DNA from: Dehalococcoidia bacterium
GTDB lineage: Bacteria; Chloroflexota; Dehalococcoidia; Lucifugimonadales; Australimonadaceae
NCBI GenBank assembly: GCA_965220225.1
Contig: OZ244813.1
Span: 1,955,385-2,019,384 of the forward strand
Reading direction: 5' to 3'
Length of the DNA: 64,000 bases
In this document: positions 42,403 through 60,141 of the stretch, piece after piece
Layout: every line of letters begins with the position of its first letter
How positions within the stretch are numbered: position 1 is the stretch's first letter
The notes under the pieces: model-generated
What the model saw: the letters and a program-made list of their open reading frames with translations, nothing else
The model's database searches: none
Told to the model about the DNA's origin: nothing
Translations under genes and position numbers: made by a program

Positions 42403-43785
42403 ATGACAACCGGGAAGACGGGAATAGCGCCGCGGCGGATCGCCATCGTGGGCGGGGGCGTCTCGGGGCTCGGCGCTGCCTGGGCGCTCCATCATCACCC
42501 GGACCGCTTCGATTTCCGGCTGTTCGAGGCCCAGGAACAGATCGGCGGCAACGCGGTTACAGTCGATATGCCGCAAGACGACGGCAGTTCGATCCCTTTC
42601 GACATCTCCGTCACCGCCTGCATCCCCTCGGTGTACCACCACATCCTGCTGCTGATGCAGAAGTTCGGCATCGATCTGGTCGATACCAGGTTCAGCTACA
42701 GCGTGATGTACGGTGGCCACGTATACGCCCACGACCTCGATTCCGACATCAGGGAGCAGTTGCAGCCCGAGATCGCGAAGTTCCAGAAGCTCTTGAGACG
42801 GCTGCGCTGGTTCGGTGGGCTCACTCGTTCCCAGTCAAAGTTCCTGAACGCACTCAACCCGTTCAACTACATCAGTATGGGCACGCTGCTGAACCTGGGG
42901 GGATTCTCCGGAGACTTCCGATACAAGGTACTGAAGCCCATGTTCGTCAATTTCCTCATGGCGACGAACGTGTTCGATATGCCCGCAGCGCTCTTCTCGA
43001 GGTATCTCGAGTTCTTCGATATCGAGAAGGCTACTCCCATGCAGACGTGGGACCAGGGGACGAGGCGCGTCTACGAGAACCTGTCAGCCAACTTCCGCGA
43101 CAAGATCTACCTGAACAGACCTGTTCGCAAAGTGTACCGGCGAACGGATAGCGTCGTTGTCGAGGACCAGGATAGTGTGCAAGAGACGTTCGACGACGTG
43201 ATATTCGCATGTAACGCGAACCAGACGCTGATGATCCTGGACGAACCCACGTTTCTCGAACGCTACATCCTCTCGTCGATACGTTACGAGAGTGAACTGC
43301 ACAACCACACGGTCGTTCACTCTGACTCGTCTGTTCTTCCAGACAACGAAGTGAAGGCCTTGACCACACGGAGCAACCACATAGAACAGTACGGCGCACG
43401 GCCGGACAACTATGAGATCACGTACATCATGCACAACCAGCAGCCATGGGCCAGCCGGTCCGACAAACCCTGCCTGGTGACCTACAACCCGATCAGCCCC
43501 ATCGATGAAAGAAAGATCGTCAAGAAGTGGTGGTTCCAGCACATCGTCCATGACGTGCGTCACGTCGTACTGCTCGTTAACCTGTTCCGCTGCATCCAGG
43601 GCAAGAGGCGAACGTGGCACTGTGGAGCTCATACCCTGGTCAACAGCCAGGAGACCTGCTTCGTCTCCGGGCTCGCCACTGCGAGACAGATTGGCGCCGA
43701 ATACCCCTTCGACGATCCTGCGGCGAAGCGGTCGTTCAACTACTACGGGAGCATCATGTACGGCTGGCGCTTCAGGAAGGCGTAG
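42403..43785 (+). CDS. FAD/NAD(P)-binding oxidoreductase (amine-oxidase-like fold)
   Basis: N-terminal dinucleotide motif IAIVGGGVSGLGAAWAL...FEAQEQIGGN. Confidence 0.75.
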   Translation: MTTGKTGIAPRRIAIVGGGVSGLGAAWALHHHPDRFDFRLFEAQEQIGGNAVTVDMPQDDGSSIPFDISVTACIPSVYHHILLLMQKFGIDLVDTRFSYSVMYGGHVYAHDLDSDIREQLQPEIAKFQKLLRRLRWFGGLTRSQSKFLNALNPFNYISMGTLLNLGGFSGDFRYKVLKPMFVNFLMATNVFDMPAALFSRYLEFFDIEKATPMQTWDQGTRRVYENLSANFRDKIYLNRPVRKVYRRTDSVVVEDQDSVQETFDDVIFACNANQTLMILDEPTFLERYILSSIRYESELHNHTVVHSDSSVLPDNEVKALTTRSNHIEQYGARPDNYEITYIMHNQQPWASRSDKPCLVTYNPISPIDERKIVKKWWFQHIVHDVRHVVLLVNLFRCIQGKRRTWHCGAHTLVNSQETCFVSGLATARQIGAEYPFDDPAAKRSFNYYGSIMYGWRFRKA

Positions 43786-43844: not shown

Positions 43845-44597
43845 ATGATGATGGCACTCGCTCCATCTATCCGAACGGCAGTGGGTCGCAGATTGTCGAT
43901 CAGCGTGCTGGCGTTGGGGTTCCTCTTCCTGGCAGCCGCGTGTGAATCGGAACCCACGCCGACCCCTGAGTTGTCGGTGGATGAGGTGCTTTCCGGTGCG
44001 GCGGAAGAATTGGCTGCACTGTCGACGGCGAAATTCCAGATGACTGACGAGATGGAATCAGGAGCGAAGTTCTTCGAGATGACTCTGAAGAGCGTGGAAG
44101 GAGAAGTCAAAACCCCCGACAGCTTCAGGATGCTGGTGGAGTTGGTGAACCCCGGTCTTGGATTCGTGGAGGTCGGAATGCTGGCGGTCGGGGACCAGGC
44201 GTACATGCAGTTCTCCGCGGACGCTCCGTGGCTCCCCCTGCCGCTGGACCAGGTACCCTTCAACTTCGGAGGGATAGGCGTTACCTTGAGCGAGATACTG
44301 CCCAGAATCAAGAACGCAGAGATCACAGGCCGGGAGTCTGTAGAAGGCGGGCGGGCGGTTCGTATAGACGGGGATATCGTCTCTGAGGATATGTCCGGTC
44401 TCATCACGGATGTGGCCTCCGGCCATGCGATCACGTTGTCCGTGTGGATCGACGAGGTCTCGCATGCCCTGCGTCAGCTCAGGATAGACGGCAGGCTCTA
44501 CGATGAAGATGCGCCGGAGACGACGCGGCTGGTGATCATCAGGGACATCAACTCCCCTGTCGATATCCAACTTCCAGAGACAGCCTCAGGGTCGTGA
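43845..44597 (+). CDS. LppX/LprAFG-family (LprG-like) lipid-binding lipoprotein
   Basis: Start MMMALAP... with lipobox FLAAAC. The body resembles the LppX_LprAFG fold pattern. 4-nt overlap with the downstream MFS gene, as in lprG-p55. Confidence 0.6.
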   Translation: MMMALAPSIRTAVGRRLSISVLALGFLFLAAACESEPTPTPELSVDEVLSGAAEELAALSTAKFQMTDEMESGAKFFEMTLKSVEGEVKTPDSFRMLVELVNPGLGFVEVGMLAVGDQAYMQFSADAPWLPLPLDQVPFNFGGIGVTLSEILPRIKNAEITGRESVEGGRAVRIDGDIVSEDMSGLITDVASGHAITLSVWIDEVSHALRQLRIDGRLYDEDAPETTRLVIIRDINSPVDIQLPETASGS

Positions 44598-46090
44598 GCA
44601 CTGCCAGGTCCGGCCTCCAATCCCTGAGATCTTCCCAGACTGTGGTGCTGGGGATCATCTGCCTGGGGGTATTCTCGACTGCCCTGGACCAGACCGTGGT
44701 GGTCGCCGCCCTGCCTGCGGTGATGGTGGACCTGGAGATCCCTCTTACCGACCTGGACAGGGCGTCCTGGATCGTAACCGGATACTTGATCAGCTACACC
44801 GTAGCGATGCCACTGGCAGGGCGTCTGTCCGACGTCTACGGCCGCGTCCGGATGTTCCACGCGGCATTGATCGTCTTCTCCATCGGGTCGGCGTTCGTGG
44901 CACTTGCGCCGAACTTCGAGTGGGTAGTATCCGCCAGAGTGGTCCAGGCCTTCGGAGGCGGCGCCACGGTCCCCATAGGCCTCGCCATGGCTGTGGCCGC
45001 TGTTTCGCCGGAGAAAAGAGGATTGGCGATAGGGCTCGTGGCGGCCTCGGCTGAAGCCGGGTCCGTGCTGGGTCCTCTCTACGGAGGGGCCATCATCGAG
45101 TTGCTGGGCTGGCGTTGGATATTCTGGCTGGACATCCCCCAGAGCCTCTTCCTGATAGCGCTTCTGGCCATCCTGCCGAACCGTGCCAACCCTGCGGCAA
45201 AGATGGACTACTTCGGGGCGCTCGTGCTCGGAGCAGCCCTCACCGTCCTCAGTATCGGCCTGTCGCAGAGAGCGATCTTCTCCGGAGAATCCCTCCTCCC
45301 GTATGTCCTGATAGCCCTTGGGGTCGGGCTGGTCCTCCTGTTGGTCCTGTTCGAGCGACGCACGACCCAGCCCCTGCTGGCATCGTTCCTGTATACCTCC
45401 AGGGCGTTCCTGTCCTCCAACATCACGCAGTTCCTCGTGGGAGTTGCGTTGATCATCTCACTGGTAGCCGTGCCCCTCATGGCCGGCACCGTCATGGAGA
45501 AGAGGGCGTGGGAGAGCGCCCTTCACCTGGTCCGTCTTACGGCCGCCATTCCGGTTGGAGCCGTTGTTGGAGGCTACATCCTGCGTTGGACGGGAGTGAG
45601 GACGGTGTGTATCACCGGCCTCGCGTTCATAGGAACGGGTCTGCTGTTCATGAGTGGTTGGGAGACGGAGGTGGAGGAGCTCAGGCTGACCGTGCCTCTG
45701 GTCATGGCGGGTCTGGGGTTCGGGCTGGTCATTCCTCCCATAGGCGTCAGCGCTTTGAGCGCAGCACCCAGTCACTACTGGGGAGCGGCGGCATCGTTGA
45801 TCACCGCATCGCGCATGGTGGGGATGGCGTTGGGGCTGGCGACCTTGTCCGCCTGGGGCATCGAGCGCTTCTACAGTCTGACCGCTGACGTGACGATCGG
45901 GTCGACGTTCGAGGAGACCGAGGCCCCCTTGATCGAAGCGGGAGTGACCGTGTTCCAGAACCTCTTCATGATCTCAGGGTTCCTTGCCCTGTTGGCCATC
46001 CTCCCGGCCCTGCTCATGCGAGTGGAAGATGTCGAAGAGGAGGCTTCCCCTGAGGGCAGCCGCTGGCCTACATCCCTGCCTGAAACATGA
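44594..46090 (+). CDS. MFS transporter, DHA2-like (14 TM)
   Basis: ALDQTVVVAALP, GRLSDVYGR motif and ~14 hydrophobic segments. Confidence 0.85.
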   Translation: MSTARSGLQSLRSSQTVVLGIICLGVFSTALDQTVVVAALPAVMVDLEIPLTDLDRASWIVTGYLISYTVAMPLAGRLSDVYGRVRMFHAALIVFSIGSAFVALAPNFEWVVSARVVQAFGGGATVPIGLAMAVAAVSPEKRGLAIGLVAASAEAGSVLGPLYGGAIIELLGWRWIFWLDIPQSLFLIALLAILPNRANPAAKMDYFGALVLGAALTVLSIGLSQRAIFSGESLLPYVLIALGVGLVLLLVLFERRTTQPLLASFLYTSRAFLSSNITQFLVGVALIISLVAVPLMAGTVMEKRAWESALHLVRLTAAIPVGAVVGGYILRWTGVRTVCITGLAFIGTGLLFMSGWETEVEELRLTVPLVMAGLGFGLVIPPIGVSALSAAPSHYWGAAASLITASRMVGMALGLATLSAWGIERFYSLTADVTIGSTFEETEAPLIEAGVTVFQNLFMISGFLALLAILPALLMRVEDVEEEASPEGSRWPTSLPET

Positions 46091-46208
46091 CGTGTTCAGG
46101 TGCAGACACGAGGGTGGGATCGGCGAGCGAATCCCGTATCCTAGATAGCATCCGGATCGTTCCAGGGAGTTGCCCACCCCGAGCCGTCCGGGCAGGGAGC
46201 GCCATTCG

Positions 46209-47285
46209 ATGACAACCCGGCGTGCAGAGCCTGACAACGTCCAGTTGCCTTCCCCGTTTCCCGAGGGTTGGTACTTCATTGCAAGCCGCAAGGCCATACA
46301 GAAGGCCAGGCTCATCCAGAAGACCTGGATGGGCGAGAACATCGTCGTCTGGTGCGATGACGAGGGGCGCATCTGCGCCTCCGGGGCTTACTGTCCGCAC
46401 CTTGGCTCCGATCTGGGGCCCGCTGCCGGAGGGCGCGTACGTGAGGGTCGGCTCGTCTGTCCCTTCCACGGCTTCGAGTACGATGCAACCGGCCAGTGCG
46501 TCGCCACTCCCTATGCTCCCCCGCCCCGGGCCGCGCGGTTACGCGTCTTTGAGACGCAGGAGATAGCCGGACTGATCTTCGGTTGGTGGGGGATCGATGG
46601 GCGGGAGTCGCAATGGCGCCTGCCCACCGACCTGTCAGACCAGACCGGCTGGAGCGCCCTCTCGGTCCGTACCCTCCGCTTCCCCGGGCATCCCCAGGAT
46701 ACGACGGAGAACTCGGTGGACCTGGCCCACCTGCTCTTCGTCCACGGGTACGGCAACGTAGACCGCGTCGGAGAGGTGTCGGTAGACGGGGCCTACTTCC
46801 GGAGCGACTTCGATTTCAGGCGCAACTACAGGATAGCCAGGATCCTGCCCTTCAATCTGGACGTCTCCACCAACACCCACATCTTCGGACTCGGCTACTC
46901 GTTCGTGGTGATCCGTGAGAAGTCCATCGGCATGGATATGCGTCTGTGGGTGCTGTCGACGCCTGTCGACGGCACGCTCATCGACCTGTCGCTGGTCTCT
47001 CAGGTGCGGGAGATCCGCAACCCGAAACGCCGGGTAGCCGGCCTGGGGTTCCTCCCCGTAGGACTGCGCGCGCCGCTCATGAACCGGTTCATCGCCGCGC
47101 AGCAGGAGCAGGACGTTCTCCGGGACGTGGTCATCTGGAGCCGCAAGCGGTACCGCTCTCTCCCGCGCCTGAGCCGTGCCGACGGGGAGATCATGACCTT
47201 TCGCGCGTACTGTGCCCAGTTCTACCTCGGCCCACAAGACCCCACGGCCCCACTCCCTCATCCGTTGGAGCGGACTGTACAATAG
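46209..47285 (+). CDS. Rieske [2Fe-2S] non-haem iron oxygenase
   Basis: CPHLGSDLG...CPFHGFEY Rieske motif. ATG at 46209. Confidence 0.8.
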   Translation: MTTRRAEPDNVQLPSPFPEGWYFIASRKAIQKARLIQKTWMGENIVVWCDDEGRICASGAYCPHLGSDLGPAAGGRVREGRLVCPFHGFEYDATGQCVATPYAPPPRAARLRVFETQEIAGLIFGWWGIDGRESQWRLPTDLSDQTGWSALSVRTLRFPGHPQDTTENSVDLAHLLFVHGYGNVDRVGEVSVDGAYFRSDFDFRRNYRIARILPFNLDVSTNTHIFGLGYSFVVIREKSIGMDMRLWVLSTPVDGTLIDLSLVSQVREIRNPKRRVAGLGFLPVGLRAPLMNRFIAAQQEQDVLRDVVIWSRKRYRSLPRLSRADGEIMTFRAYCAQFYLGPQDPTAPLPHPLERTVQ

Positions 47286-47384: not shown

Positions 47385-49868
47385 ATGAGCAACCTACTCG
47401 GCAGGATGAGTTGGCTGGTCACGGTCCGCCCCTGGCTGACGCTTCTCGTCCTCCTCATCGTCACCGTCGTGATGGTTATGGGGACGCAGCAACGTCTGCC
47501 GCCTACGGAGGGCGCAAGCGTTGCCTTCCTTCCTCCCGGTCATCCCATCGCTGAAGCAACACAAGAGATAGATGACCGGTTCGGGGACTCCGGCGAAGTG
47601 ATAGTTGTAACACTCGTCTTTCGTGGGGAGGCGCTTACGCCGGGGGGCCTCTCCCAGATGGATAGCCTGTTGGATGAGATCGTCCAGGACCCGGGCGTCG
47701 GCGACCTGTTGGCGCCTGGCGATCCGGTCGTTGCGCCATCGTCGCTGATCGGCGCCGTGCTTCAGTTGGACAGTTTCGAGTCGGTCACGCAGGAACAGAT
47801 CGACTCCGCACGCAACGTCCCCGGGATCGGGGAGGCGCTTGCTGAGATGACTGGCACCGACACCGACGGCACGCTCGTTGCGATCGCTATCGTGCGTCTG
47901 CGCGACACGGGCGACGAGCGCGTTGGCGATGCCGAACGGAGGATCAGCGAGCTGGCTGCAGGGGACGAGGGTGCGTCGCGTGTGAGCAGCCTGTCGTCGG
48001 CGGTCATCGAGGATGCGTACAAGAAGGCCACAGAGGAGGGGATGGGGCCGCTGATCGGGCTGGCGCTGTTGCTGATCGCCGCTCTGCTCCTGCTCTTCAC
48101 CCGCGCGCTGTCGGATATGTTGCTGACTCTGCTGGGGCTTATCGTCGCGATCATGTGGGTTGTCGGCGCTGAGGGCTGGCTTGGGCCGAATGGACTCGGC
48201 GTGATAGGCCCTCCCAGCTCACTCACCGCGATGGTGCCCGTCATCATCATCAGCCTCACGGTGGACTACGCGATCCAGGCGATCTCTCACTACCGGGAGC
48301 AGCGGCTCGCGGGCGAGCCCGTTGTCCGAGCGGTGCAGATCGGTCTGCGGAACGTCACGGTCCCACTGACGTTGGCCGCAGTCACGACGATCGTCAGCTT
48401 GTTGGCAACCCTGTTCTCGCCGATAGGTGTGATAGGAGACTTCGGCGTCGTCGCGGGTATGGGTGTGGGGTTGAGCCTGATAGTGATGCTGACGCTGGTC
48501 CCGGCGGCCCGGACGATCCTGGACCGGCGTCGCGAGGCACGCGGCACGTTGCGGCAGCCTCGCCCGCTTTCGAATGCGCTGCCCGGCGTCCCGCGGCTGG
48601 CGGAGGTGCTCGGAAGACGGGTGACGCGCCAACCGGCACCCTACATCATCGTCGTGCTCGCGGTGACGATCGCGCTGGGGTTCGCGGCTACCGACCTCAA
48701 ATCGGAGTTCAGCATCCGCGATGTCCTTCCCCGAGGCGGGACCATCGTGGCTGACATGGAAACACTTGACGCGACCGTCGGCGGTTCGACGGAGATGGCC
48801 AGCGTGCTGGTGAAGGCCGAGGCTACGGAGACCCGCACACTCCTGAACCTGCAGGACCTCAGGACCGCTTTCCAGGACGAGCAACGGCGCCCGCGCGCAG
48901 CGGCAGGGCCACTCCTGGCGTCGTACGAGTCGCTCCTGGAAGACTGGACTACCGACAGCGGGCAGCCCGGCGACAACTACGACCGGGAGCTTGCGGCTCT
49001 CTTCAACGAGGCTTCCTCGGGAGTGCAGCTCGATCCGGCCCTGATGCAGGAGCTCCTGGACAAGCTGGGAGAGAGGGAACCCGGGGTCACCCACGGCCTG
49101 GTCAACGATCCGAACGGCATCGACACCATCCTGTTGCAGTTCCCGACCTACTCGAACGATCCGGGAGCAACCAAGACACTTCAGGGCGATCTCGAAGCGC
49201 TCTGGGCTGGAGACGATACCGCTCTCACGGTGCTTTCGGAGACCGTCGTCTCGATCGGGGTTACGGATGCCATCACCGACCGGCAGACAGAGGCGATCAG
49301 CACTACTATCGCGGCGGCGCTGACCGTCCTCGCTGTCTTCTTCTGGCTGACGGCACGCCAACCGGCGCTGGCAGTCATCGCGGTCGGGCCCATCGTGCTC
49401 GTCCTCGTCTCGGTGCTGGGCACCATGGCGCTGCTGGGCATCCCGTACTCACTCGTCACGTCGATCATCACGGCGCTCTCGATAGGGATAGGCGTGGACT
49501 ACACCATCCACGTGATCCATCGCTACCGAGATGAGTTCACTCGCACCCGCAATCCGGAGAGTGCGGCGGTCCGGACGCTCGCGACAACGGGTTCGGCGCT
49601 CTTGGGTTCCGCGATGACGACTGCGCTGGGATTCGGAGTGCTGATCGCTTCGCCCTTGCTTGCTTCTCAGCAGTTCGGCATCACGGCGACCATCACCATC
49701 GTTTACTCTCTGATCGTCTCCGTGCTCTTGGTACTGCCGGCGATGGTGGTCTGGGGCGCGTACCAGAACATGCGACTGCGCTCCATGGTGGAGCGCCAGT
49801 GGGCCGAGCTCGACGTGGCGATAGAGGGCATACATCAGCGCAATGAACCAGGGCAAAGCTCGTCGTAA
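47385..49868 (+). CDS. MMPL/RND-superfamily transporter
   Basis: 827 aa. Two 6-TM bundles, each preceded by a large soluble loop. DYAIQ and GVDYTIH motifs typical of the MMPL/SSD class. Confidence 0.85.
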   Translation: MSNLLGRMSWLVTVRPWLTLLVLLIVTVVMVMGTQQRLPPTEGASVAFLPPGHPIAEATQEIDDRFGDSGEVIVVTLVFRGEALTPGGLSQMDSLLDEIVQDPGVGDLLAPGDPVVAPSSLIGAVLQLDSFESVTQEQIDSARNVPGIGEALAEMTGTDTDGTLVAIAIVRLRDTGDERVGDAERRISELAAGDEGASRVSSLSSAVIEDAYKKATEEGMGPLIGLALLLIAALLLLFTRALSDMLLTLLGLIVAIMWVVGAEGWLGPNGLGVIGPPSSLTAMVPVIIISLTVDYAIQAISHYREQRLAGEPVVRAVQIGLRNVTVPLTLAAVTTIVSLLATLFSPIGVIGDFGVVAGMGVGLSLIVMLTLVPAARTILDRRREARGTLRQPRPLSNALPGVPRLAEVLGRRVTRQPAPYIIVVLAVTIALGFAATDLKSEFSIRDVLPRGGTIVADMETLDATVGGSTEMASVLVKAEATETRTLLNLQDLRTAFQDEQRRPRAAAGPLLASYESLLEDWTTDSGQPGDNYDRELAALFNEASSGVQLDPALMQELLDKLGEREPGVTHGLVNDPNGIDTILLQFPTYSNDPGATKTLQGDLEALWAGDDTALTVLSETVVSIGVTDAITDRQTEAISTTIAAALTVLAVFFWLTARQPALAVIAVGPIVLVLVSVLGTMALLGIPYSLVTSIITALSIGIGVDYTIHVIHRYRDEFTRTRNPESAAVRTLATTGSALLGSAMTTALGFGVLIASPLLASQQFGITATITIVYSLIVSVLLVLPAMVVWGAYQNMRLRSMVERQWAELDVAIEGIHQRNEPGQSSS

Positions 49869-49876
49869 GGAGGCTC

Positions 49877-50914
49877 ATGCAACTTCGCAAGCTACCCAGC
49901 GGACTGAAGGCCGCATACCGCGGGTCGGACGTCCAACGTCGCGTGGAACGATTCGATGGATGGACGGACAGGGCGTCCGCAGAGGACACCGCCCCGTCGG
50001 GCTACGACCACGTCGAAACCGTCAGGGAATACTACGACCTCTGCAATGAGTTCATGGTGTTCGGCTGGAGCGAGTCCCTCCACTTCGCGCCGCTGTCGCC
50101 CGAGGAGAGCCTCGAGGACTCCCAGACCCGACACCAGCGGCTGATGATCGACAAGCTGGAGTTGCAAGAGGGCATGACGGTGATCGATGTCGGTTGCGGG
50201 ATAGGCGGCCCGATGCGCCGTGTCGCCCGGGAGGCCGGTGTCAGGGTCGTCGGTGTGAATACCAGCAAGGTCCAGTTGGGGAAGGCGAGGTCGTTGAACG
50301 CCGAGGCGGGGCTCGACCACCTGGTCGACTACCTCGAGTGCAGTTTCATGGACATGGGCGCTATCGCGAACGACACGTTCGACCGGGGGTACGCGATCGA
50401 ATCGACGTGCCATGCGCCGGACAAGGCGGGCGCGTTCGCTGAGATATACCGCGTGCTGAAACCCGGAGCCCTCTTCTGGGGTCAGGAGATGTGCATGACG
50501 GACAGGTTCGACCCCGGCGACAGCCGGCACCGGGCCATCAAGAGGGACCTGATGCACGGCATCGCGCTCAAGGACATCGCGACTACGGACGAGGTGGACC
50601 AGGCCCTCGAAGCGGCAGGATTTCAGGTCATGGAGGGCAGGGACCGTGCCGTTGCGGAGAGCGGTCCGACCACGCCGTGGTATCACCCCATGGAGACGCG
50701 GGGCAAGACGCGGAACAGCCCCCTGCGCAGGATTCCGTTGGGCCGGAAGGCGTACATCGGGGTATCCAGGCTGGCCGAGGTGTTGGGCGTATTCCCGAAA
50801 GGGTCCGCGGACGTCGTCAGGCTGATGGACCGCACCGCCAGGGCCTACGTCGCAGGCGGCAGGGCCGGGGTCTTCACGCCGTTGTACTGCTTCCTGGCCC
50901 GCAAGCCCCTGTAG
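49877..50914 (+). CDS. SAM-dependent C-methyltransferase, sterol 24-C-methyltransferase (ERG6/SMT)-like
   Basis: YYDLCNEFMVFGWSESLHFA, VIDVGCGIGGP, YAIESTCHAPDK, EIYRVLKPG and MTDRFDPGDSRHRAI line up with the ERG6/SMT signature blocks recalled from memory. Confidence 0.75.
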   Translation: MQLRKLPSGLKAAYRGSDVQRRVERFDGWTDRASAEDTAPSGYDHVETVREYYDLCNEFMVFGWSESLHFAPLSPEESLEDSQTRHQRLMIDKLELQEGMTVIDVGCGIGGPMRRVAREAGVRVVGVNTSKVQLGKARSLNAEAGLDHLVDYLECSFMDMGAIANDTFDRGYAIESTCHAPDKAGAFAEIYRVLKPGALFWGQEMCMTDRFDPGDSRHRAIKRDLMHGIALKDIATTDEVDQALEAAGFQVMEGRDRAVAESGPTTPWYHPMETRGKTRNSPLRRIPLGRKAYIGVSRLAEVLGVFPKGSADVVRLMDRTARAYVAGGRAGVFTPLYCFLARKPL

Positions 50915-50941: not shown

Positions 50942-52975
50942 TCAGGCTACCAGGGGTATCTCGCGCCGCAGCTCGGCGATGCGGAACTTCAGCTTCTTGT
51001 TCGGCTTCATCGACGGGACCGGGTTGAACTTGAGCTTGTAGTCCCCGGGGGACACTTCGATGTTGAAGTAGTGCGCGACCATCAGCACGTTGATCGCCAG
51101 CTGCAGTTCCATCCAACGGGTGCCGAGGCAGGTGTGCGTGCCCAGCCCGTAGGGGGCGTACCCGGGACTGAGGTGCTCGTTGCGCGGCGCCTTGTAGCGG
51201 TCGATGTCGAAGGTGAAGGGGTCGGGGAAGACCTCCTTCATGTAGTGCGTCGCCGTGGTCGCGATGAAGACCTGTGACCCCACCGGCAGTTCGTAGTCCT
51301 CCACCACGCACGTGTTCATCACGTTCCGGATGGACATCGGAACGATGGGGTATATCCGCACGGTCTCCATCAGGAAGCGGTGCGTGACGTCTATCGCCTG
51401 CAGGGTGAAGTCCGCGCCGTCCGGGTCGCCGTTCTCGAAGAGGGCGTCGGCTTCACGCTGCAGATCCCGGTAGAGTTCGGGCTGCGACGCCATGGCGTAG
51501 AGTGCGAAACTGAACGCGTCGCCAAGGTACACGCTGGCGATCAGCGCCGCCGAAAGCTGGAAGCGCAGGGTCGTCTCCGGCACGAACTGCGGATCGCTTG
51601 CGTGCAGGCTGAGCCAGTCGTCCGCGAGGTCTCTTGGAGAACCGGCCCGTTGCGCGGGCGTATGGACGCTCTGGACCCGCTCCAGGAGGGTATCCACGGC
51701 CTTTGCCCGGCGTTTCATGCCCGGAGTGCGGAGCATGAACTTGGGCAGGGCCTTCATGATGTGGGTGAGGAGCGCTCGCTCCTTGTACTTCGCCAGGTCG
51801 TCGAAAATGTCCTGGGAATCGACGCTGACGAAGAGCGGCGAGAGTTGCGCGTTGATCATCTGCCGGCTCATGCTCGTCGCGGGGTACGAGTCTCCGACCT
51901 TCCAGCCCGACATGTGTTTCCGGGCATGGCGGTAGAGGATATTCAGCTGTCCTTCCAGCCTCCCGCGGGAGTACGCCGGTGACATGGCCTTCCGGAGCCG
52001 GAAATGATCTGCCCCATCCATGGAAGGCATCACGCCGTTCGCCCCATAGACCTTCTCGAAGTCGGAGAAGTAGTCCTTGGCTCTCAGGTACATGCGCCCG
52101 TGCCGGTGCACCCAGTGGTTCGTGGCTGTCCCGGCGAGGAAGATCATCGGTTTCTTGAACGGCGGATGTATCTTGAACACCGGGCCGTACTCCTTTGCGA
52201 GGTCCGCAAAGAGCGCCGCGATGTTGCCGCTGCGAAGATGGGGGCTGAACAGCATCTTGCGCAGCGAGACGTTCGGGATCTTCTTCGTGAAGGCGGAGCG
52301 CCGAAGTAGCGGACCGGCGATGTTCTGGGAGACCGCCTCGGCTATGGAGCGGCCTATCAGGTCCATCCTGCAGATCGCCTGGATGCGCTGCTCTATCTCG
52401 TCGTCGAGTTGGAACATGAACCGGAAGACGTCGCACGTATCGATGAGCGCGATGATGATGACGTCTCTCGGGTCGGGTATCTCGTTGTTGAAGATGACCT
52501 TGGTGATGCGCGTTCTGACGAACTGGGCCGCGGTGCCATCCGTGGACGTGTTGGACAACTCGGCCTGCAGAACGTTGCGGGACAACGTCCAGAATTCGCC
52601 GTCATGGTGTTCCAGGATGTTCAGGTCAACGAGGCGGTCCAACGTCAGGTCGACGACGGATTCTGCACGCGGGGCGAGCCGTTCTATCCAGTACTGGGTG
52701 TTGTGCTGGGCCGGTTCGCTTGCGATCTCCTTCAGGATGGGGTCCAGGGCAGGGTCGCCCGTTTCCGTCCGGTCAACGATGAACAGACTCTCGACGTCTG
52801 TGTCGATGCGGCCCATGAGCGAGAGTTCCGCGAGTACGGCGCCGGCGACGGTGCAGTTCAGGTCCCAGCCGGGAACCTGATGAAAGTAACCGCTCTCCTC
52901 GTTGAGGAGCATCAGGATGAGCTCTTCCGGCAGGCTTAGCGCCTGGGTTGTCACACCTTCGGTGGAAAGAGTCAT
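50942..52975 (-). CDS. Fusion protein: N-terminal GPP34/GOLPH3-family domain plus C-terminal cytochrome P450
   Basis: N-terminus LPEELILMLLNEESGYF...AGAVLAELSLMGRI (GPP34 pattern). C-terminus ETVR (ExxR) and haem loop YGLGTHTCLG. ATG at 52975 follows GGAGACCGAGG; an alternative GTG lies at 53002. Confidence 0.8.
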   Translation of the reverse strand: MTLSTEGVTTQALSLPEELILMLLNEESGYFHQVPGWDLNCTVAGAVLAELSLMGRIDTDVESLFIVDRTETGDPALDPILKEIASEPAQHNTQYWIERLAPRAESVVDLTLDRLVDLNILEHHDGEFWTLSRNVLQAELSNTSTDGTAAQFVRTRITKVIFNNEIPDPRDVIIIALIDTCDVFRFMFQLDDEIEQRIQAICRMDLIGRSIAEAVSQNIAGPLLRRSAFTKKIPNVSLRKMLFSPHLRSGNIAALFADLAKEYGPVFKIHPPFKKPMIFLAGTATNHWVHRHGRMYLRAKDYFSDFEKVYGANGVMPSMDGADHFRLRKAMSPAYSRGRLEGQLNILYRHARKHMSGWKVGDSYPATSMSRQMINAQLSPLFVSVDSQDIFDDLAKYKERALLTHIMKALPKFMLRTPGMKRRAKAVDTLLERVQSVHTPAQRAGSPRDLADDWLSLHASDPQFVPETTLRFQLSAALIASVYLGDAFSFALYAMASQPELYRDLQREADALFENGDPDGADFTLQAIDVTHRFLMETVRIYPIVPMSIRNVMNTCVVEDYELPVGSQVFIATTATHYMKEVFPDPFTFDIDRYKAPRNEHLSPGYAPYGLGTHTCLGTRWMELQLAINVLMVAHYFNIEVSPGDYKLKFNPVPSMKPNKKLKFRIAELRREIPLVA

Positions 52976-53163
52976 CAGCCTCGGTCTCCGAGCATGCCTC
53001 ACACCTTCGGGTCACTTATGCCCGTAACCAAGTTAGTATGACTCCCGAAATTGGGGGGTGTCAACGCAGAAAAGACGCCAGCTTCTGTCGCCACCCGGGA
53101 GCGCGTATCAGTGCGGGACGGGTCGGTTGGCTGCGTGGCCCGGCATACGGAGCCAGCGGCTCC

Positions 53164-54405
53164 TTACGCGTACGTGGCGAGCACTCGCTCGATGTCTGCG
53201 TGAGCGACGCTGGGGCCTGCCTCCTGGGGAACATACTTCTTCGGGGCGCCGTTCACGAACCCTCTGCTTGGCTCCACGGGCAGCCCGACCGGCTCGCCGA
53301 ACCTGTCGTGAAACACGTTCATGGGGTCGCCGCCATCCTCGACGATGGCCATCTGTTCCCTCAGCATCTTGCGGAACATGATGATGCCCTTGTCTGACTC
53401 ACCGAGTTTCTCGAGGTCGCGGCGTGCCACCGGCCCCTGGCTGACCCAGGCCATATAGTCCTGGTTGAAGGTGACATCGGTGATGAATCGCCCGTCTTCG
53501 CCTACCAATGGGTTGTAGTAGTACGGTACCGGGTCCTGCTGCGGCACTACCACGCCCTCGGCTGCGCGGAAGATGTAGATGGATACGTGCAGCGTGTTCT
53601 CGTCATCGACGGGCACACGGAACTGCATCGTGATCTTCTGAGGAGAACCGACCTGCAGGATGTTGGGAAACAGGATAGGGTGTCCCACTTTCCAGAGATC
53701 GTGGTCTTCGCCGAGTCCGCGCAGCACGCGTCGCTTGATGATGCCGTGTTCGAACTGTTCGAACCGGATCCGCTCATGCGGCGCGGACTCGCCGCGCACG
53801 TCCACGGTCTTGCCTGCGGCAAGCTGCTGGTAACGGGTCCAGTAGGAGTGCAACCACTCGGTATGCACGGGATCGAGGGAGTTCTCCTGGCACTGGAGCC
53901 AGTTGCAGGGAAGCTCGGTGAGCGCGATGTCGCACGCGACATTGTCGGCTGCCAGCGGCTCCCAGAGAGGCAGGACCGGCGCCGGGGACGGCCCCAGGTA
54001 GGCGAACACCAGCCCGCGGAGTTCCTGCACGGGGTAGCCGGCAACCTTCACTTTCTCCTTGAAGCGCCCGTCCGGGTGGACGGTCTCCTCGAAGGGCTGC
54101 TCGATGCACTGGCCGGTCTCGTCCATCATCCAGCCGTGGTACATGCAGCGCAGGCCGTGCTCCTCGGGGATGCCGTAGGAGAGGTCGACGCGGCGGTGCG
54201 GGCAGAAGCGTTCGATGAGGCCGAGGGTGCCGGACCTGTCCCTGTAGAGGACGAGGTCCTCACCGAGGACGCGGACGGCTTTCGTGGGGCGGTCGACGAG
54301 TTCGCCCGCGGCGGCGATGGGGTGCCAGTAGCGGCGCATGAGATCGCCCATCGGGGTCCCGGCCCCTACTCGGGTCAACTTCTCGTTCTGTTCGGTGCTC
54401 AGCAT
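53164..54405 (-). CDS. Rieske oxygenase, alpha-subunit-like (KshA/ring-hydroxylating class)
   Basis: CPHRRVDLSYG...CMYHGWMMD. Mononuclear iron region DPVHTEWLH. Start MLSTEQNEKL (ATG 54405). Confidence 0.85.
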   Translation of the reverse strand: MLSTEQNEKLTRVGAGTPMGDLMRRYWHPIAAAGELVDRPTKAVRVLGEDLVLYRDRSGTLGLIERFCPHRRVDLSYGIPEEHGLRCMYHGWMMDETGQCIEQPFEETVHPDGRFKEKVKVAGYPVQELRGLVFAYLGPSPAPVLPLWEPLAADNVACDIALTELPCNWLQCQENSLDPVHTEWLHSYWTRYQQLAAGKTVDVRGESAPHERIRFEQFEHGIIKRRVLRGLGEDHDLWKVGHPILFPNILQVGSPQKITMQFRVPVDDENTLHVSIYIFRAAEGVVVPQQDPVPYYYNPLVGEDGRFITDVTFNQDYMAWVSQGPVARRDLEKLGESDKGIIMFRKMLREQMAIVEDGGDPMNVFHDRFGEPVGLPVEPSRGFVNGAPKKYVPQEAGPSVAHADIERVLATYA

Positions 54406-54562
54406 CGCCGTCTCTCCTGATGCGGATCCGCGTTGCCAATCCCTGGGACTCGTCCACGGCAACTATACCACCCGGATATACGGTGGACGCACGCTCCCGG
54501 CTGCGGTTGGGCGAGCGGTGCAATAAACTCCTCCAACGAGATCTTCCACAAGGAGACGTTCG

Positions 54563-55849
54563 ATGCTTTCCCAGGAAGACAACGACCTGCTTACGCGGAC
54601 GGGGCCCGGGACACCCGCAGGGAACCTGCTTCGGCGGTATTGGCAGCCGGTGGCGTTGTCGGAGGAGTTGACCGAGGATGGGCCGCCCCTGGTGGTGCGA
54701 GTCATGGGCGAAGACCTCGCGCTCTTCCGCGACGAGTTCGGGCGCCTTGGCCTGCTCGGTCTTCGATGCCCTCACCGAGGGACCGACCTGAGCTACGGGC
54801 GGATCGAGGACGGCGGTCTCCGCTGCGTCTACCACGGGTGGCTGTTCGACATCCACGGCAACTGCCTCGATCAGCCAGGCGAACCCGAGTGGAGCCGGTT
54901 CGCGGACAAGGTACGGCACCGCTCATATCCGTGCATCCAGCGAGGCGGGCTGGTCTTCGCCTACATGGGGCCGGGAGAACCTCCCGAACTGCCGGACTAC
55001 GAATGCCTGGGCCTTCCCGAGGAGAACGTTCTCGTCACCAAGTTCTACCACGAGTGCAACTACCTGCACGGGCACGAGGGGAACATCGACCCACAGCACC
55101 TTGCCACGCTTCACTACGTGCTCCCCGATGAGGTGGCCGACGCTGGCGTGCGATGGGACGCGAAGGGTATCGACGTGGCGCCCCGGATCGAGGTGGAGGA
55201 GACGGACTACGGTATCCGCATCTACTCGGGACGCGACCTCGACGATGACCACGACTACGTGCGCATCACCAACTACGTTTACCCGGCCGCTGTCGCGTTC
55301 CCTGCCTTGCGTCCGCCGGACATAACCGGCGCGCCTATCGGAACGGCGGTCGGTGCAGGCTTCTACGGCGTCAACTGGCAGGTGCCGATAGACGACACCC
55401 ACCACTGGAAGTACATGCTGCTTGTATCGCCGAACGGTCCGCTTGCGAAGGAGCGCATCGGGCCGGTTATCCTCGCCGACATGGGCCCGGGCTATGCCCA
55501 CGTACGCGACCGCTCCAACCGTTACCTCCAGGACCGTGCCGAGATGAAGCGGACGACGTTTCTCGGTATGGGCGCCAGTTTCGCATTGCAGGACAAGTTC
55601 GCTGTCGAAGCACAGGGCGACATCCAGGACAGGACAGTCGAGCACCTGGGCTACGCCGACAAGCCCGTAGCTCTCTCGCGGCGCCTGCTGCTCCGGGCCA
55701 TCCGGGAAGTGGAGGAGGGCGGCGAGGCGCCCCACGTCGTGCGGGACCCTGCGCAGAACCGGATGGAACACCTGCGCGTCTATGAGGCGGTCATCCCCAA
55801 GACCGAGGAGTGGAACTCCATCTGGCAACGCGACGCTGCGGCAGGCTGA
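54563..55849 (+). CDS. Rieske oxygenase, alpha-subunit-like; paralogue of 53164-54405
   Basis: CPHRGTDLSYG...CVYHGWLFD. The N-terminus MLSQEDNDLLTRTGPGTPAGNLLRRYWQPVA parallels the divergent neighbour. Confidence 0.85.
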   Translation: MLSQEDNDLLTRTGPGTPAGNLLRRYWQPVALSEELTEDGPPLVVRVMGEDLALFRDEFGRLGLLGLRCPHRGTDLSYGRIEDGGLRCVYHGWLFDIHGNCLDQPGEPEWSRFADKVRHRSYPCIQRGGLVFAYMGPGEPPELPDYECLGLPEENVLVTKFYHECNYLHGHEGNIDPQHLATLHYVLPDEVADAGVRWDAKGIDVAPRIEVEETDYGIRIYSGRDLDDDHDYVRITNYVYPAAVAFPALRPPDITGAPIGTAVGAGFYGVNWQVPIDDTHHWKYMLLVSPNGPLAKERIGPVILADMGPGYAHVRDRSNRYLQDRAEMKRTTFLGMGASFALQDKFAVEAQGDIQDRTVEHLGYADKPVALSRRLLLRAIREVEEGGEAPHVVRDPAQNRMEHLRVYEAVIPKTEEWNSIWQRDAAAG

Positions 55850-55905
55850 CCGGACTGCTAGAATCCGCCGCGCCAGCAGGCGAGATTCGACCGGGAGTGG
55901 AGTGT

Positions 55906-56658
55906 ATGGCGATAGCGTCGCCGGAACAGTTCGAGAGCCAGATGGCGCGTCTCATCTGGGAGGTTCGTTGGAAGGAGCACAACTCCTTCGATATCTGGCT
56001 GCAGAACCACATGTGCCGTGAGGGGGCCGCCGTCTTCGCGCTGGAGCACACAGTCTTTGCCGACGAGTTTCCCCGCTGGTTCGGCAGCATCATCGGCAAT
56101 TGCCCTGCGCTCGACGTCCGTCAATACATGATCGAGAACATGTACGTCGAGGAAGTGACCGACCCAACGATCGAAACCGGTCACTATGAGAGCATGGTGG
56201 ACTTCTCGGTAGCACTTGGCTTCCAGCGGGACTACGTCTATGCCTACAAGGGACGCCCGTACACGAAGATGGCGCTGGCGTACTGGGAGCGTGCAAGCCG
56301 GGCATGGCCGTGGCTGGAGGCATTCGCGACGGTCGCCGGGCTGGAAGCGGCGCGTGGCCCGGCGGTAGCAAGGCTTGGCAACATCGCATCGCTGAACCGC
56401 AAGGTGTGGGAACCCCTTGGACTGCCGGACGAGGCACTCTCCCATTGGTCGGCGGGGGAGAAAGCGGACTTCCCTGAAGGCGGACACGGAGACATGACGC
56501 TCAAGATACTGGCGAAGTACGCAGACGACGCCCCCAAGCAAGCGATGGTGCTGGACCTGCTCCGCGAGACGATGCAGATACGCTGGTTCCACTTCGACCA
56601 GATTGGCCGTGACGCGCTCATCGCGTCCGGCGTCGACCCTGCCAGCGTGAGGCGGTAA
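55906..56658 (+). CDS. Haem-oxygenase-like / TenA-PqqC-like iron-containing redox protein
   Basis: All-helical, with HxxxE-type patterns (ALEHTVFADEF, ENMYVEEV). The assignment is tentative. Confidence 0.5.
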   Translation: MAIASPEQFESQMARLIWEVRWKEHNSFDIWLQNHMCREGAAVFALEHTVFADEFPRWFGSIIGNCPALDVRQYMIENMYVEEVTDPTIETGHYESMVDFSVALGFQRDYVYAYKGRPYTKMALAYWERASRAWPWLEAFATVAGLEAARGPAVARLGNIASLNRKVWEPLGLPDEALSHWSAGEKADFPEGGHGDMTLKILAKYADDAPKQAMVLDLLRETMQIRWFHFDQIGRDALIASGVDPASVRR

Positions 56659-56663
56659 CCGCA

Positions 56664-57401: not shown

Positions 57402-57402
57402 G

Positions 57403-60131: not shown

Positions 60132-60141
60132 GAGGAGCGGC

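What the first reader, a model, noticed from the sequence alone, without database searches (positions are those of the whole stretch)
49877..50914. ERG6/SMT-like sterol C-24 methyltransferase homologue in a bacterial lipid-export cluster
The 345-aa protein carries blocks I recall as diagnostic of eukaryotic sterol 24-C-methyltransferases. These are YYDLCNEFMVFGWSESLHFA (ERG6: YYNVVTDFYEYGWGSSFHF), VIDVGCGIGGP, YAIESTCHAPDK (YAIEATCHAP), EIYRVLKPG and MTDRFDPGDSRHRAI (MTDKYDENNPEHRKI). Bacterial SMT homologues are rare and have been linked to sterol side-chain alkylation biomarkers. Here the gene is translationally adjacent to an MMPL/RND transporter. It is surrounded by Rieske oxygenases, a P450, an SDR and an FAD oxidoreductase.
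Basis: partly seen in the sequence, partly recalled or inferred. Interest (0 to 1): 0.7.

Follow-up and report, generated by a model that had tools for sequence, protein, structure and literature searches.

The report
Divergent sterol methyltransferase in sponge symbionts
The gene is a real member of the sterol side-chain methyltransferase family, but it belongs to a distinct, apparently untested branch found in sponge-associated bacteria, where it travels with a GPP34–P450 fusion, an oxygenase, a flavoenzyme and lipid transporters that in some symbionts sit inside sterol-synthesis gene clusters.

Summary
The ORF at 49877-50914 (+, 345 aa) is real. It belongs to the SMT family: Pfam Sterol_MT_C scores 54 bits, and it aligns end to end at 30-44% identity with plant SMT1-like and fungal ERG6 proteins. 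It is not an ERG6-type orthologue. It falls in a separate clade (300/300 NJ bootstraps) that keeps all catalytic and SAM-binding residues but has a remodelled sterol pocket. The pocket changes are fixed across 235 members: Y81M, F89L, A221W, Y223Q and D/N249I.

The clade is common in Dehalococcoidia/SAR202-type MAGs, many from sponge samples. Of 96 loci with adequate flanks, 80 have a GPP34-P450 fusion within 10 kb, 70 an MMPL with a sterol-sensing domain, 67 a KshA-like Rieske oxygenase and 45 an amine-oxidase flavoprotein.

In Nitrospira-type symbiont contigs (L103, L165) the divergent SMT and its partners lie beside complete sterol-synthesis clusters that carry their own canonical SMTs. In L169 two of the partners do so without a divergent SMT. 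Three Dehalococcoidia/Chloroflexota MAGs with the module were published as lacking such a cluster.

Best reading: a sterol-tailoring and trafficking module. Substrate and methylation position are untested.

The parts
49877..50914 (+). Divergent-clade SMT-family SAM-dependent C-methyltransferase (345 aa). Region I is aa 53-70 (nt 50033-50086). The SAM motif DxGxGxxGP is at nt 50186-50212. Region IV, KPGALFWGQE, is aa 195-204 (nt 50459-50488). Sterol_MT_C is aa 286-344 (nt 50732-50908).
47385..49868 (+). MMPL/RND (HAE3-like) transporter with Patched and sterol-sensing-domain matches and about 10-12 TM segments. It lies directly upstream of the SMT and appears translationally coupled to it.
   Evidence: present in 70/96 divergent-clade loci
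50942..53002 (-). GPP34 (GOLPH3-like) :: cytochrome P450 fusion ('GPP34_L'), convergent with the SMT. It has no N-terminal signal peptide or TM segment. Read by eye from the translation, the Cys-ligand motif is PYGLGTHTCLG and the ExxR motif is ETVR.
   Evidence: 80/96 loci; literature
46170..47285 (+). Rieske non-haem-iron oxygenase with a KshA_C-type catalytic domain. The CxH...CxxH and D..H...H motifs are intact.
   Evidence: 67/96 loci
42403..43785 (+). FAD amine-oxidase-family flavoprotein. The nearest solved relatives are LkcE and the P. acnes fatty-acid isomerase. It is the most conserved module protein (78-92% identity across loci, 86% in L169).
43845..44597 (+). LppX/LprAFG-family lipoprotein (lipid carrier). 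The likely true start is near 43845, which gives a signal peptide ending ...FLAAAC. Its stop overlaps the MFS start by 4 nt.
   Evidence: found with the MFS in 26/80 genome loci
44594..46090 (+). MFS transporter with 12 TM-like segments, paired with the lipoprotein. The layout matches the mycobacterial LprG-P55 pair.

Best explanation
The gene encodes an active SAM-dependent olefin C-methyltransferase of the sterol methyltransferase (SMT) family. It belongs to a distinct clade found, wherever the source can be identified, in sponge-associated bacteria.

Shown:
- The catalytic and cofactor residues are retained: H69 (ERG6 H90), E175 (E195), D104xGxGxxGP112 and G197.
- Five pocket positions are remodelled and fixed across the clade: M60 (Y81), L68 (F89), W201 (A221), Q203 (Y223) and I229 (D/N249).
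- The gene is co-inherited with a GPP34-P450 fusion, a KshA-type Rieske oxygenase, an amine-oxidase flavoprotein and lipid transporters.

Inferred: it transfers a methyl group to a double bond in the isoprenoid side chain of a sterol, or of a closely related triterpenoid. This would be a step different from, or additional to, the canonical first C-24 methylation. The reason is that sterol clusters containing this clade also carry their own canonical SMTs with 25/25 conserved residues.

Inferred roles of the partners:
- The P450 and the Rieske enzyme oxidise or desaturate the same lipid.
- The flavoprotein reduces, isomerises or desaturates a double bond.
- The SSD-bearing MMPL, and where present the LprG-like lipoprotein plus MFS, move the product or substrate across the envelope.

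In Nitrospira-type symbionts the module is embedded in a de novo sterol cluster. In the window's Dehalococcoidia lineage it stands alone. There the sterol is probably acquired from the host or from co-symbionts, or made by unlinked genes that I could not check.
For: Family membership:
- Sterol_MT_C scores 54 bits.
- The protein aligns full-length at 30-44% identity with SMT-family representatives, and only 260 representative clusters reach E<=1e-30.
- Named relatives include rice cycloartenol C24-MT1-like, fungal ERG6 and a sponge-symbiont 'sterol methyltransferase'.

Distinct clade:
- NJ bootstrap support is 300/300. The window is a median 34% identical to canonical SMTs, and canonical SMTs are a median 37% identical to each other.
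- The signature is fixed in 229-235 of 235 members, and the catalytic and SAM residues are invariant. This argues for a working enzyme with an altered pocket.

Linkage:
- GPP34-P450 is within 10 kb in 80/96 loci, MMPL in 70/96, the KshA-like Rieske protein in 67/96 and the FADox in 45/96.
- Partner identity ranges from 43 to 94% and the arrangements vary.
- The SMT-GPP34-P450 adjacency holds at 40% SMT identity in a diderm-type context, L084.

Sterol link:
- L103: 3beta-HSD-type SDR, Rieske/VanA_C, ERG24, P450, SE::OSC, canonical SMT, divergent SMT, GPP34-P450.
- L165: the same sterol genes plus FADox (78-83% identical to the window's), an MMPL/SSD, a KshA-like Rieske protein, a divergent SMT (73%), an FA hydroxylase and GPP34-P450.
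- L169: FADox (86%) and GPP34-P450 inside a sterol cluster that has three canonical SMTs.
- The MMPL carries Patched and sterol-sensing-domain matches.
- The Rieske protein's nearest solved relative is KshA.

Against: - No biochemical data exist for this clade. I found no sign that Brown et al. assayed a member.
- Three of the residues that differ from the set conserved in all functional SMTs lie in sterol-binding Region I, and deviations there were associated with inactivity on desmosterol and 24-methylenecholesterol.
- No cyclase motif occurs in the window or within 10 kb in the 80 genome loci.
- Published MAG tables score bin16, bin127 and jk18xAbins.55, all of which carry the module, as lacking the ERG24-CYP51-LSS cluster.
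- Adjacency of the divergent SMT to a sterol cluster was seen in only two loci, both of one Nitrospira-type lineage. L169 adds only the partner genes.
- The Rieske proteins and the MMPL are far below the NCBIfam equivalog cut-offs for SdmA, BstA and HpnN.
- About 10 of 80 genome loci hold the SMT alone in unrelated contexts.
- Many of the counted loci come from related genomes and are not independent.
Confidence: 0.55

Rival explanations
1. It is an ordinary ERG6/SMT1-type enzyme that performs the first C-24 methylation of a delta-24 sterol. On this view the clade-specific substitutions are neutral lineage drift.
For: It is a full-length homologue of SMTs with Sterol_MT_C and intact H90, E195 and SAM motifs. 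Its distance to canonical SMTs (median 34% identity) is similar to the distances among canonical SMTs (37%). Bacterial SMTs from sponge metagenomes do methylate desmosterol.
Against: Five pocket residues, including Y81, F89 and Y223, are replaced and then fixed in 229-235 of 235 sequences. That pattern fits selection for a different pocket, not drift. F89 and T78 are among the residues conserved in all functional SMTs. In L103 and L165 the divergent gene coexists with canonical paralogues that keep 25/25 residues in the same cluster, which argues for a non-redundant role.
Confidence: 0.15
2. It methylates a non-sterol lipid, such as an unsaturated fatty acyl chain (giving mid-chain methyl branches), squalene or another acyclic isoprenoid, or a hopanoid-type lipid. 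The flavoprotein would reduce the resulting exomethylene, and the MMPL and LprG-like/MFS pair would export the product to the envelope.
For: The strongest Pfam hit for the N-terminal domain is CMAS. Module-bearing Dehalococcoidia MAGs are scored as lacking a sterol cluster. MMPL and LprG-like/MFS are classic envelope-lipid exporters. The flavoprotein's solved relatives act on polyketide or fatty-acid substrates: LkcE and the P. acnes fatty-acid isomerase. BfaB and BfaA give a precedent for olefin methylenation followed by flavin-dependent reduction. From my own knowledge, SMT-family enzymes that methylate squalene or botryococcene, or the sterol C-4 position, are known (Botryococcus TMTs, C. 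elegans STRM-1).
Against: All NCBIfam cyclopropane/mycolic/CFA equivalog models are far below their cut-offs, for example 60 bits against 650. The SMT-specific C-terminal domain is present. The module sits inside sterol clusters in L103 and L165, and in part in L169. The Rieske protein is KshA-type and the MMPL has a sterol-sensing-domain match. Homology of the flavoprotein to BfaA is not shown.
Confidence: 0.2
3. The SMT is incidental. GPP34-P450 is a host-directed effector that binds host PI4P and modulates phagocytosis, as proposed in the literature, and the neighbourhood only reflects a shared 'symbiosis island'.
For: GPP34_L is reported to be exclusive to sponge symbionts across many phyla and to be expressed in situ. 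The window region lies beside a conjugative element and a recombinase. Module proteins are 70-90% identical across phyla, which suggests horizontal spread.
Against: The linkage survives many rearrangements and persists down to 40% SMT identity. GPP34-P450 has no detectable signal peptide. The co-inherited genes are all lipid-modifying or lipid-transport functions, and in three loci they are interleaved with sterol-synthesis genes.
Confidence: 0.07
4. The protein is a catalytically dead or regulatory SMT paralogue.
For: Four of the 25 residues conserved in functional SMTs are changed. Such deviations were associated with inactivity in vitro.
Against: The SAM-binding and proposed catalytic residues are invariant in 233-235 of 235 members. 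The changed residues are themselves fixed. Identity of 75-98% across many species indicates strong purifying selection.
Confidence: 0.03

Closest known systems
Bacterial SMTs from sponge-symbiont and environmental metagenomes (Brown et al. 2023, PMC10070321; Brown & Welander 2025 preprint)
   Same: Same protein family and domain architecture (methyltransferase domain plus Sterol_MT_C). Same habitat and even the same metagenome datasets (A. aerophoba, P. ficiformis, S. foetidus). In L103 and L165 the divergent gene shares a cluster with such canonical SMTs.
   Different: The tested functional enzymes keep all 25 conserved residues (GWGxxFHF and so on). This clade has M81, L89, W221, Q223 and I249, keeps 21-23 of 25, and forms a separate clade with 300/300 support. 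None of the contigs listed as tested matches my divergent-clade loci. It is usually linked to GPP34-P450 and MMPL rather than to an OSC.
Eukaryotic ERG6 / SMT1 sterol 24-C-methyltransferases
   Same: 30-41% identity over the full length. Regions II and III, H90, E195 and G217 are conserved.
   Different: The aromatic residues of Regions I and IV that bind the sterol side chain and steer product outcome (Y81, F89, Y223) are replaced. The gene is bacterial, operonic and paired with transporters.
GPP34_L (GPP34::P450 fusion) of sponge symbionts (PMC11706023)
   Same: The window's 50942-53002 gene has exactly this architecture, and the lineage (sponge Dehalococcoidia) is one where GPP34_L is reported to be frequent.
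   Different: That paper interprets GPP34 as a PI4P-binding modulator of host phagocytosis. It does not mention methyltransferases, MMPL, sterols or lipids. Here GPP34_L is tightly linked to an SMT-family gene and, in three loci, to sterol-synthesis genes.
Clusters of steroid genes (ERG24-CYP51-LSS) in sponge symbionts (Kelly et al. 2022, PMC9531527)
   Same: L103, L165 and L169 contain this cluster with the described flanks: an SDR labelled 'DFR', a hypothetical Rieske protein, and an SMT on the opposite strand.
   Different: The extra genes (divergent SMT, GPP34-P450, amine-oxidase flavoprotein, KshA-like Rieske protein, MMPL) were not described as part of the cluster. The window's own lineage carries these extras without the core cluster.
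BfaB/BfaA 10-methyl fatty-acid system and the LprG-P55 lipid export pair of mycobacteria
   Same: Same logic: SAM-dependent methylenation of an olefin plus a flavoprotein, and a lipoprotein carrier followed by an MFS pump with overlapping genes.
   Different: The methyltransferase here is SMT-type, not CFA-type. Homology of the flavoprotein to BfaA is not established. The resemblance to LprG-P55 rests on Pfam families and gene order only.

Membership tests
Sterol methyltransferase (SMT/ERG6) family | C-terminal Sterol_MT_C domain (PF08498) | tested here: met
   54.3 bits against a cut-off of 21.7, aa 286-344
Sterol methyltransferase (SMT/ERG6) family | Full-length homology to characterised or named SMTs | tested here: met
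   30-44% identity end to end. Rice SMT1-like 41% (3.6e-72); fungal ERG6 cluster 35%.
Sterol methyltransferase (SMT/ERG6) family | SAM-binding Region II, DxGxGxxGP | tested here: met
   D104-P112 (DVGCGIGGP)
Sterol methyltransferase (SMT/ERG6) family | Sterol-binding Region I motif GWGxxFHF, with Y81 | tested here: not met
   The window has GWSESLHF (G86S, F89L) with Y81M and T78N. L89 occurs in 235/235 clade members and M81 in 232/235.
Sterol methyltransferase (SMT/ERG6) family | Region III E195 and Region IV G217 | tested here: met
   E175 and G197 are present. The rest of Region IV reads KPGALFWGQE (W221, Q223).
Sterol methyltransferase (SMT/ERG6) family | [quoted passage not shown] | tested here: not met
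   21/25 kept. The changes are T78N, G86S, F89L and L341M.
Sterol methyltransferase (SMT/ERG6) family | Methylation of a sterol side chain in vitro | not testable with these tools
   Needs an enzyme assay. I found no published assay of this clade.
Sterol methyltransferase (SMT/ERG6) family | Sterol source in the same genome (OSC and squalene epoxidase) | tested here: inconclusive
   None in the window or within 10 kb in the 80 genome loci. Contig-length matching against the top 120 OSC relatives gave no overlap. Related MAGs are scored without the cluster. The clade is adjacent to SE::OSC in L103 and L165.
Cyclopropane / mycolic-acid / CFA synthases | NCBIfam equivalog score above cut-off | tested here: not met
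   Best scores are 52-60 bits against cut-offs of 390-650
SdmA C-4 sterol demethylase (tested on the window's Rieske proteins) | NCBIfam NF052579 equivalog score | tested here: not met
   32-70 bits against a cut-off of 600, and only the Rieske domain aligns
BstA / HpnN sterol or hopanoid RND transporters (tested on the MMPL) | NCBIfam equivalog score | tested here: not met
   BstA 32 bits against 1400; HpnN 70-98 bits against 752-1100. The HAE3 subfamily model gives 192 against 352. Pfam MMPL, Patched and Sterol-sensing are above their cut-offs.
GPP34_L (GPP34::P450 fusion) | GPP34 domain N-terminal to a P450 domain in one polypeptide | tested here: met
   PF05719 at aa 24-225 (6e-32) and PF00067 at aa 257-671 (1e-36)

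The most novel reading that the evidence does not exclude
This clade is the enzyme for an unconventional sterol side-chain alkylation in sponge holobionts. It would methylate a position or substrate that canonical SMTs do not, for example a second or terminal (C-26/C-27-type) methylation of an already alkylated or delta-25 side chain. The sponge-symbiosis hallmark GPP34-P450 would be its partner sterol oxidase rather than a phagocytosis effector. Symbionts that lack sterol synthesis, such as the window's Dehalococcoidia, would then remodel host or co-symbiont sterols and export them. This would make bacteria direct contributors to the unusual sterols used as 'sponge' biomarkers.
Probability: 0.15. 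Interest if true: 0.85.

Novelty: new variant of a known kind. Interest (0 to 1): 0.62.

Why it matters
Side-chain-alkylated steranes, such as 24-isopropylcholestane and (from my own knowledge) 26-methylstigmastane, are used as the oldest chemical evidence for animals. Whether bacteria in sponges can make or remodel such sterols is actively debated.

This finding defines a large, conserved and apparently unassayed SMT clade in sponge symbionts with a re-engineered sterol pocket, so it is an obvious candidate for non-canonical alkylation.

It also ties GPP34-P450, published as a symbiosis-specific putative host-manipulation factor, to a lipid and sterol tailoring and transport module. That gives a concrete, testable biochemical alternative for one of the most widespread 'symbiosis genes' of sponge microbiomes.

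Finally, the module occurs in genomes reported to lack sterol synthesis. This raises the testable idea that symbionts scavenge and modify sterols.

Tried and rejected
1. **SdmA/SdmB, BstA/BstB and HpnN roles for the neighbours.** I asked whether the window's Rieske plus SDR genes are SdmA/SdmB and whether the MMPL plus SBP are BstA/BstB or HpnN. All are far below the NCBIfam equivalog cut-offs. The LigXa Rieskes, SDR, CADD-like protein, isochorismatase and hydantoinases are conserved only in the closest relatives, 3-11 of 80 loci. The SBP is found in 0 of 80.

2. **CYP51 identity for the P450.** CYP51 structures match only distantly (about 1e-16). The best matches are CYP725- and CYP102-type.

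3. **Cyclase motif search.** I searched for DCTAE and DxDDTA in the window and the 80 genome loci and found none.

4. **OSC in the window's own chromosome.** I compared contig lengths of OSC homologues with those of SMT-bearing chromosomes and found no overlap. This is inconclusive, because only the top 120 of 1595 OSC hits are listed and these are Nitrospira-centred.

5. **SMT copies without the module.** I asked whether they sit next to sterol clusters. They do not. Their contexts are unrelated: SBP, NHL, TauE, luciferase-like, CoA-transferase and GcvT-type genes.

6. **BfaA homology for the flavoprotein.** The paper describes BfaA only as an FAD-linked oxidoreductase, so I kept it as a mechanistic precedent only.

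7. **Solved SMT structure.** PDB sequence search found no real SMT structure, only generic methyltransferases (RebM, MitM) at about 1e-21. I did not run structure prediction, because the tools return no coordinates for pocket analysis.

8. **Rooting.** I had no non-SMT outgroup sequences. The tree is therefore unrooted or midpoint-rooted, and I cannot say whether the clade is sister to canonical SMTs or nested within them.
Full report
**Observation**

The ORF at 49877-50914 (+) is present with an ATG start and encodes 345 aa. Its codon-position GC (0.62/0.47/0.86) is that of a real gene.

Pfam finds a class I methyltransferase core, with CMAS as the best hit at 7.7e-20. It also finds the SMT-specific C-terminal domain Sterol_MT_C at 54.3 bits against a cut-off of 21.7. 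No NCBIfam model reaches its cut-off, and the cyclopropane and mycolic synthase models are about ten-fold below theirs. The PDB holds no close relative, only generic methyltransferases at about 1e-21.

The MMPL gene ends in TAA at 49866-49868. A GGAGG follows, and the SMT ATG is at 49877.

**Where the window comes from**

The closest relatives of the protein are annotated only as 'class I SAM-dependent methyltransferase' from Chloroflexi/Chloroflexota MAGs. A scan of species-representative genomes found 342 stretches. The best 80 are almost all Dehalococcoidia/SAR202-type MAGs, many from sponge projects. So this homologue is not rare.

The window also carries a leucine-rich-repeat protein and a 70%-GC conjugative element next to a large serine recombinase, just upstream of the module.

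**Family placement**

An exhaustive HMMER search of 1.84 billion cluster representatives gave only 260 clusters at E<=1e-30. The query aligns end to end with them at 30-44% identity. Named examples are a rice cycloartenol C-24-methyltransferase-1-like protein (41%), a fungal ERG6 cluster (35%) and a sponge-symbiont Acidimicrobiia 'sterol methyltransferase' (44%).

It reproduces all 25 positions that Brown & Welander (2025 preprint) list as conserved in every functional SMT, so it is adequate as an anchor.

The window protein keeps 21 of the 25. The changes are T78N, G86S and F89L (all in sterol-binding Region I) and L341M. It also has Y81M. Its Region IV reads KPGALFWGQE (W221, Q223) where canonical SMTs have KPGGxFxxYE, and it has I at position 249.

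In a distance tree the window protein, the SAR202 set and three deeper lineages (P0122, P0124, P0125) form one clade, recovered in 300 of 300 bootstraps. The clade is about as far from canonical SMTs (median 34% identity) as those are from each other (37%).

Across 235 unique clade members:

| Residue (ERG6 numbering) | Members |
|---|---|
| H90 | 233/235 |
| D125, G127, G129 | 235/235 |
| P133 | 233/235 |
| E195 | 234/235 |
| G217 | 235/235 |
| M81 | 232/235 |
| L89 | 235/235 |
| W221 | 235/235 |
| Q223 | 233/235 |
| I249 | 229/235 |

. This is the pattern of an active enzyme with a deliberately different substrate pocket. It does not look like drift or decay.

**Conserved neighbourhood**

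I compared the window's neighbours with 164 loci from genomes and metagenomes. Among the 96 divergent-clade loci with at least 4 kb on both sides:

| Neighbour within 10 kb | Loci |
|---|---|
| GPP34-P450 fusion | 80/96 |
| MMPL | 70/96 |
| KshA-like Rieske oxygenase | 67/96 |
| Amine-oxidase flavoprotein | 45/96 |

An LppX/LprAFG lipoprotein plus MFS pair occurs in about a third of the genome loci. Partner identities range from 43 to 94% and the order and orientation vary, so the linkage has survived many rearrangements.

The deepest member, P0125, is 40% identical and has a TonB-dependent receptor nearby. It too is followed directly by a GPP34-P450 gene.

The LigXa-type Rieskes, SDR, CADD-like protein, isochorismatase and hydantoinases occur only in the closest relatives, so they are not part of the unit. 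About ten loci hold the methyltransferase alone in unrelated contexts.

**Link to sterols**

Neither the window nor the 80 genome loci contain a triterpene cyclase motif. Three symbiont contigs do show a link.

- **L103** is from an A. aerophoba metagenome, and its OSC is closest to Nitrospira MAG proteins. Its gene order is: 3beta-HSD-type SDR, Rieske/VanA_C, ERG4/ERG24, P450, a squalene-epoxidase::oxidosqualene-cyclase fusion, a canonical SMT, then the divergent SMT (72% identical to the window's) and GPP34-P450.
- **L165** is a 2.63-Mb contig. It has the same sterol genes followed by the flavoprotein (78-83% identical to the window's), an MMPL/SSD, a KshA-like Rieske protein, a divergent SMT (73%), a fatty-acid-hydroxylase-family protein and GPP34-P450.
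- **L169** interleaves the flavoprotein (86%), GPP34-P450 (47%) and a KshA_C-type Rieske protein with the sterol genes and three canonical SMTs.

Every canonical paralogue in these clusters keeps 25/25 conserved residues. The divergent ones keep 21-23. This coexistence argues that the divergent enzyme does something the canonical ones do not.

The other OSC contexts I examined lack the module (L166, and the Acidimicrobiia-type L167, L168 and L170).

**Does the window's lineage make sterols?**

I could not scan the window's own genome. Contig-length matching of OSC homologues gave nothing, but it covers only the top 120 of 1595 hits.

Kelly et al. 2022 report ERG24-CYP51-LSS clusters in ten symbiont phyla, including some Dehalococcoidia (order Bin125). 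Their MAG table, however, scores three MAGs as lacking the cluster:

- A. aerophoba Bin16 (order UBA2963, 90% complete)
- A. aerophoba Bin127 (95.5% complete)
- Ircinia MAG jk18xAbins.55

My loci L023 (bin16, full module, MMPL 94% identical to the window's), L072 (bin127) and L073 (jk18xAbins.55) come from those bins. I inferred the mapping from bin names to assemblies from the names themselves. The MAGs are incomplete, and 'cluster absent' is not the same as 'no cyclase'. With those caveats, the window's lineage probably carries the module without de novo sterol synthesis.

**Mechanism proposed**

Shown:
- An SMT-family fold with an intact SAM site and the proposed catalytic His and Glu.
- A remodelled, fixed pocket.
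- Operonic coupling to an SSD-bearing MMPL.
- Conserved linkage to two oxygenases and a flavoprotein.
- Embedding in sterol clusters in some symbionts.

Inferred:
- The enzyme adds a methyl group from SAM to a side-chain double bond of a sterol or sterol-like triterpenoid, at a step distinct from canonical C-24 methylation.
- The P450 and the Rieske enzyme hydroxylate or desaturate the same molecule.
- The flavoprotein handles a double bond, by reduction, isomerisation or desaturation.
- The MMPL, and where present the LprG-like lipoprotein plus MFS, move the lipid across the envelope.

GPP34-P450 has no signal peptide or N-terminal TM segment. The GPP34 domain may therefore dock the P450 on a membrane surface. 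That is speculation.

In Dehalococcoidia the substrate would be an acquired sterol.

**Comparison with the literature**

Bacterial SMTs are known and have been assayed (Brown et al. 2023). None of the contigs they list matches my divergent-clade loci. The additional 2025 set was chosen for Gly at position 249, whereas this clade has Ile.

GPP34-P450 ('GPP34_L') was described in 2025 as exclusive to sponge symbionts and proposed to modulate phagocytosis. That paper does not mention methyltransferases, MMPL, sterols or lipids.

So the kind of gene is known. The clade, its pocket signature and its module appear to be undescribed in the literature I could search.

**Verdict**

I file the finding as a new variant of a known kind and rate it moderately to highly interesting. 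It offers a specific, testable candidate for non-canonical sterol alkylation in sponge holobionts and a biochemical context for a prominent 'symbiosis gene'. Substrate, regiochemistry and the sterol source in this genome remain untested.

Noticed in passing
window 8000-41200: A block of about 70% GC sits within a 60-65% GC genome. It encodes a helicase, a DUF6094/N6-type DNA methylase, a DnaG-like primase, TrbL/VirB6, a VirB4/TraG-type ATPase and a TrwB-like coupling protein. A large serine recombinase lies at 39460-41199. This looks like an integrative conjugative element inserted just upstream of the module. No tRNA gene is present in the window.
   Followed up: partly
window 654-3173: An 839-aa leucine-rich-repeat protein. 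It is a eukaryote-like repeat protein of the type enriched in sponge symbionts, which fits a sponge-associated origin for the window.
   Followed up: no
window 53164-62199: Two LigXa_C-type Rieske oxygenases, a CADD-like protein, an SDR, an isochorismatase-family protein and hydantoinase A/B. This block is conserved only in the closest relatives (3-11 of 80 loci), so it is a separate, lineage-specific block and not part of the SMT module.
   Followed up: partly
window 50942-53002 (-): The P450 domain of the GPP34-P450 fusion has the Cys-ligand motif (PYGLGTHTCLG) and ExxR. A simple pattern search found no canonical I-helix acid-alcohol pair ([AG]Gx[DE]T). This might indicate unusual oxygen activation. 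I did not examine its conservation.
   Followed up: no
L103:4336-7998, L150:484-3936, L165:10001-13390, L169:10001-13390: In sponge-symbiont contigs, squalene epoxidase and oxidosqualene cyclase are fused into one polypeptide of about 1130 aa. There are 1595 homologues at E<=1e-30, with named hits from Nitrospira, Acidimicrobiia, Alphaproteobacteria and Rhodospirillales MAGs.
   Followed up: partly
L165:13405-14785 and L165:18668-19701: The flavoprotein and the KshA-like Rieske genes each align to the window proteins in two overlapping pieces (the flavoprotein is called as two ORFs). These may be frameshifts. They could be real pseudogenisation or indel errors in a long-read assembly.
   Followed up: no
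L012 and L014 (both on CBDEGP010000002.1); L049 (CBDEFI010000002.1): One Dehalococcoidia contig carries two module-less copies of the divergent methyltransferase about 110 kb apart. A MAG labelled Acidimicrobiales carries a 78%-identical copy with MMPL and GPP34-P450. The latter suggests horizontal transfer or mis-binning.
   Followed up: no
window 42403-43785 vs L169:20634-21992: The amine-oxidase flavoprotein is the most conserved protein of the module. It is 86% identical between the Dehalococcoidia-type window and L169, a contig that carries a Nitrospira-type OSC, which is higher than the SMT or the P450 between such lineages. This implies very strong constraint or recent transfer.
   Followed up: partly
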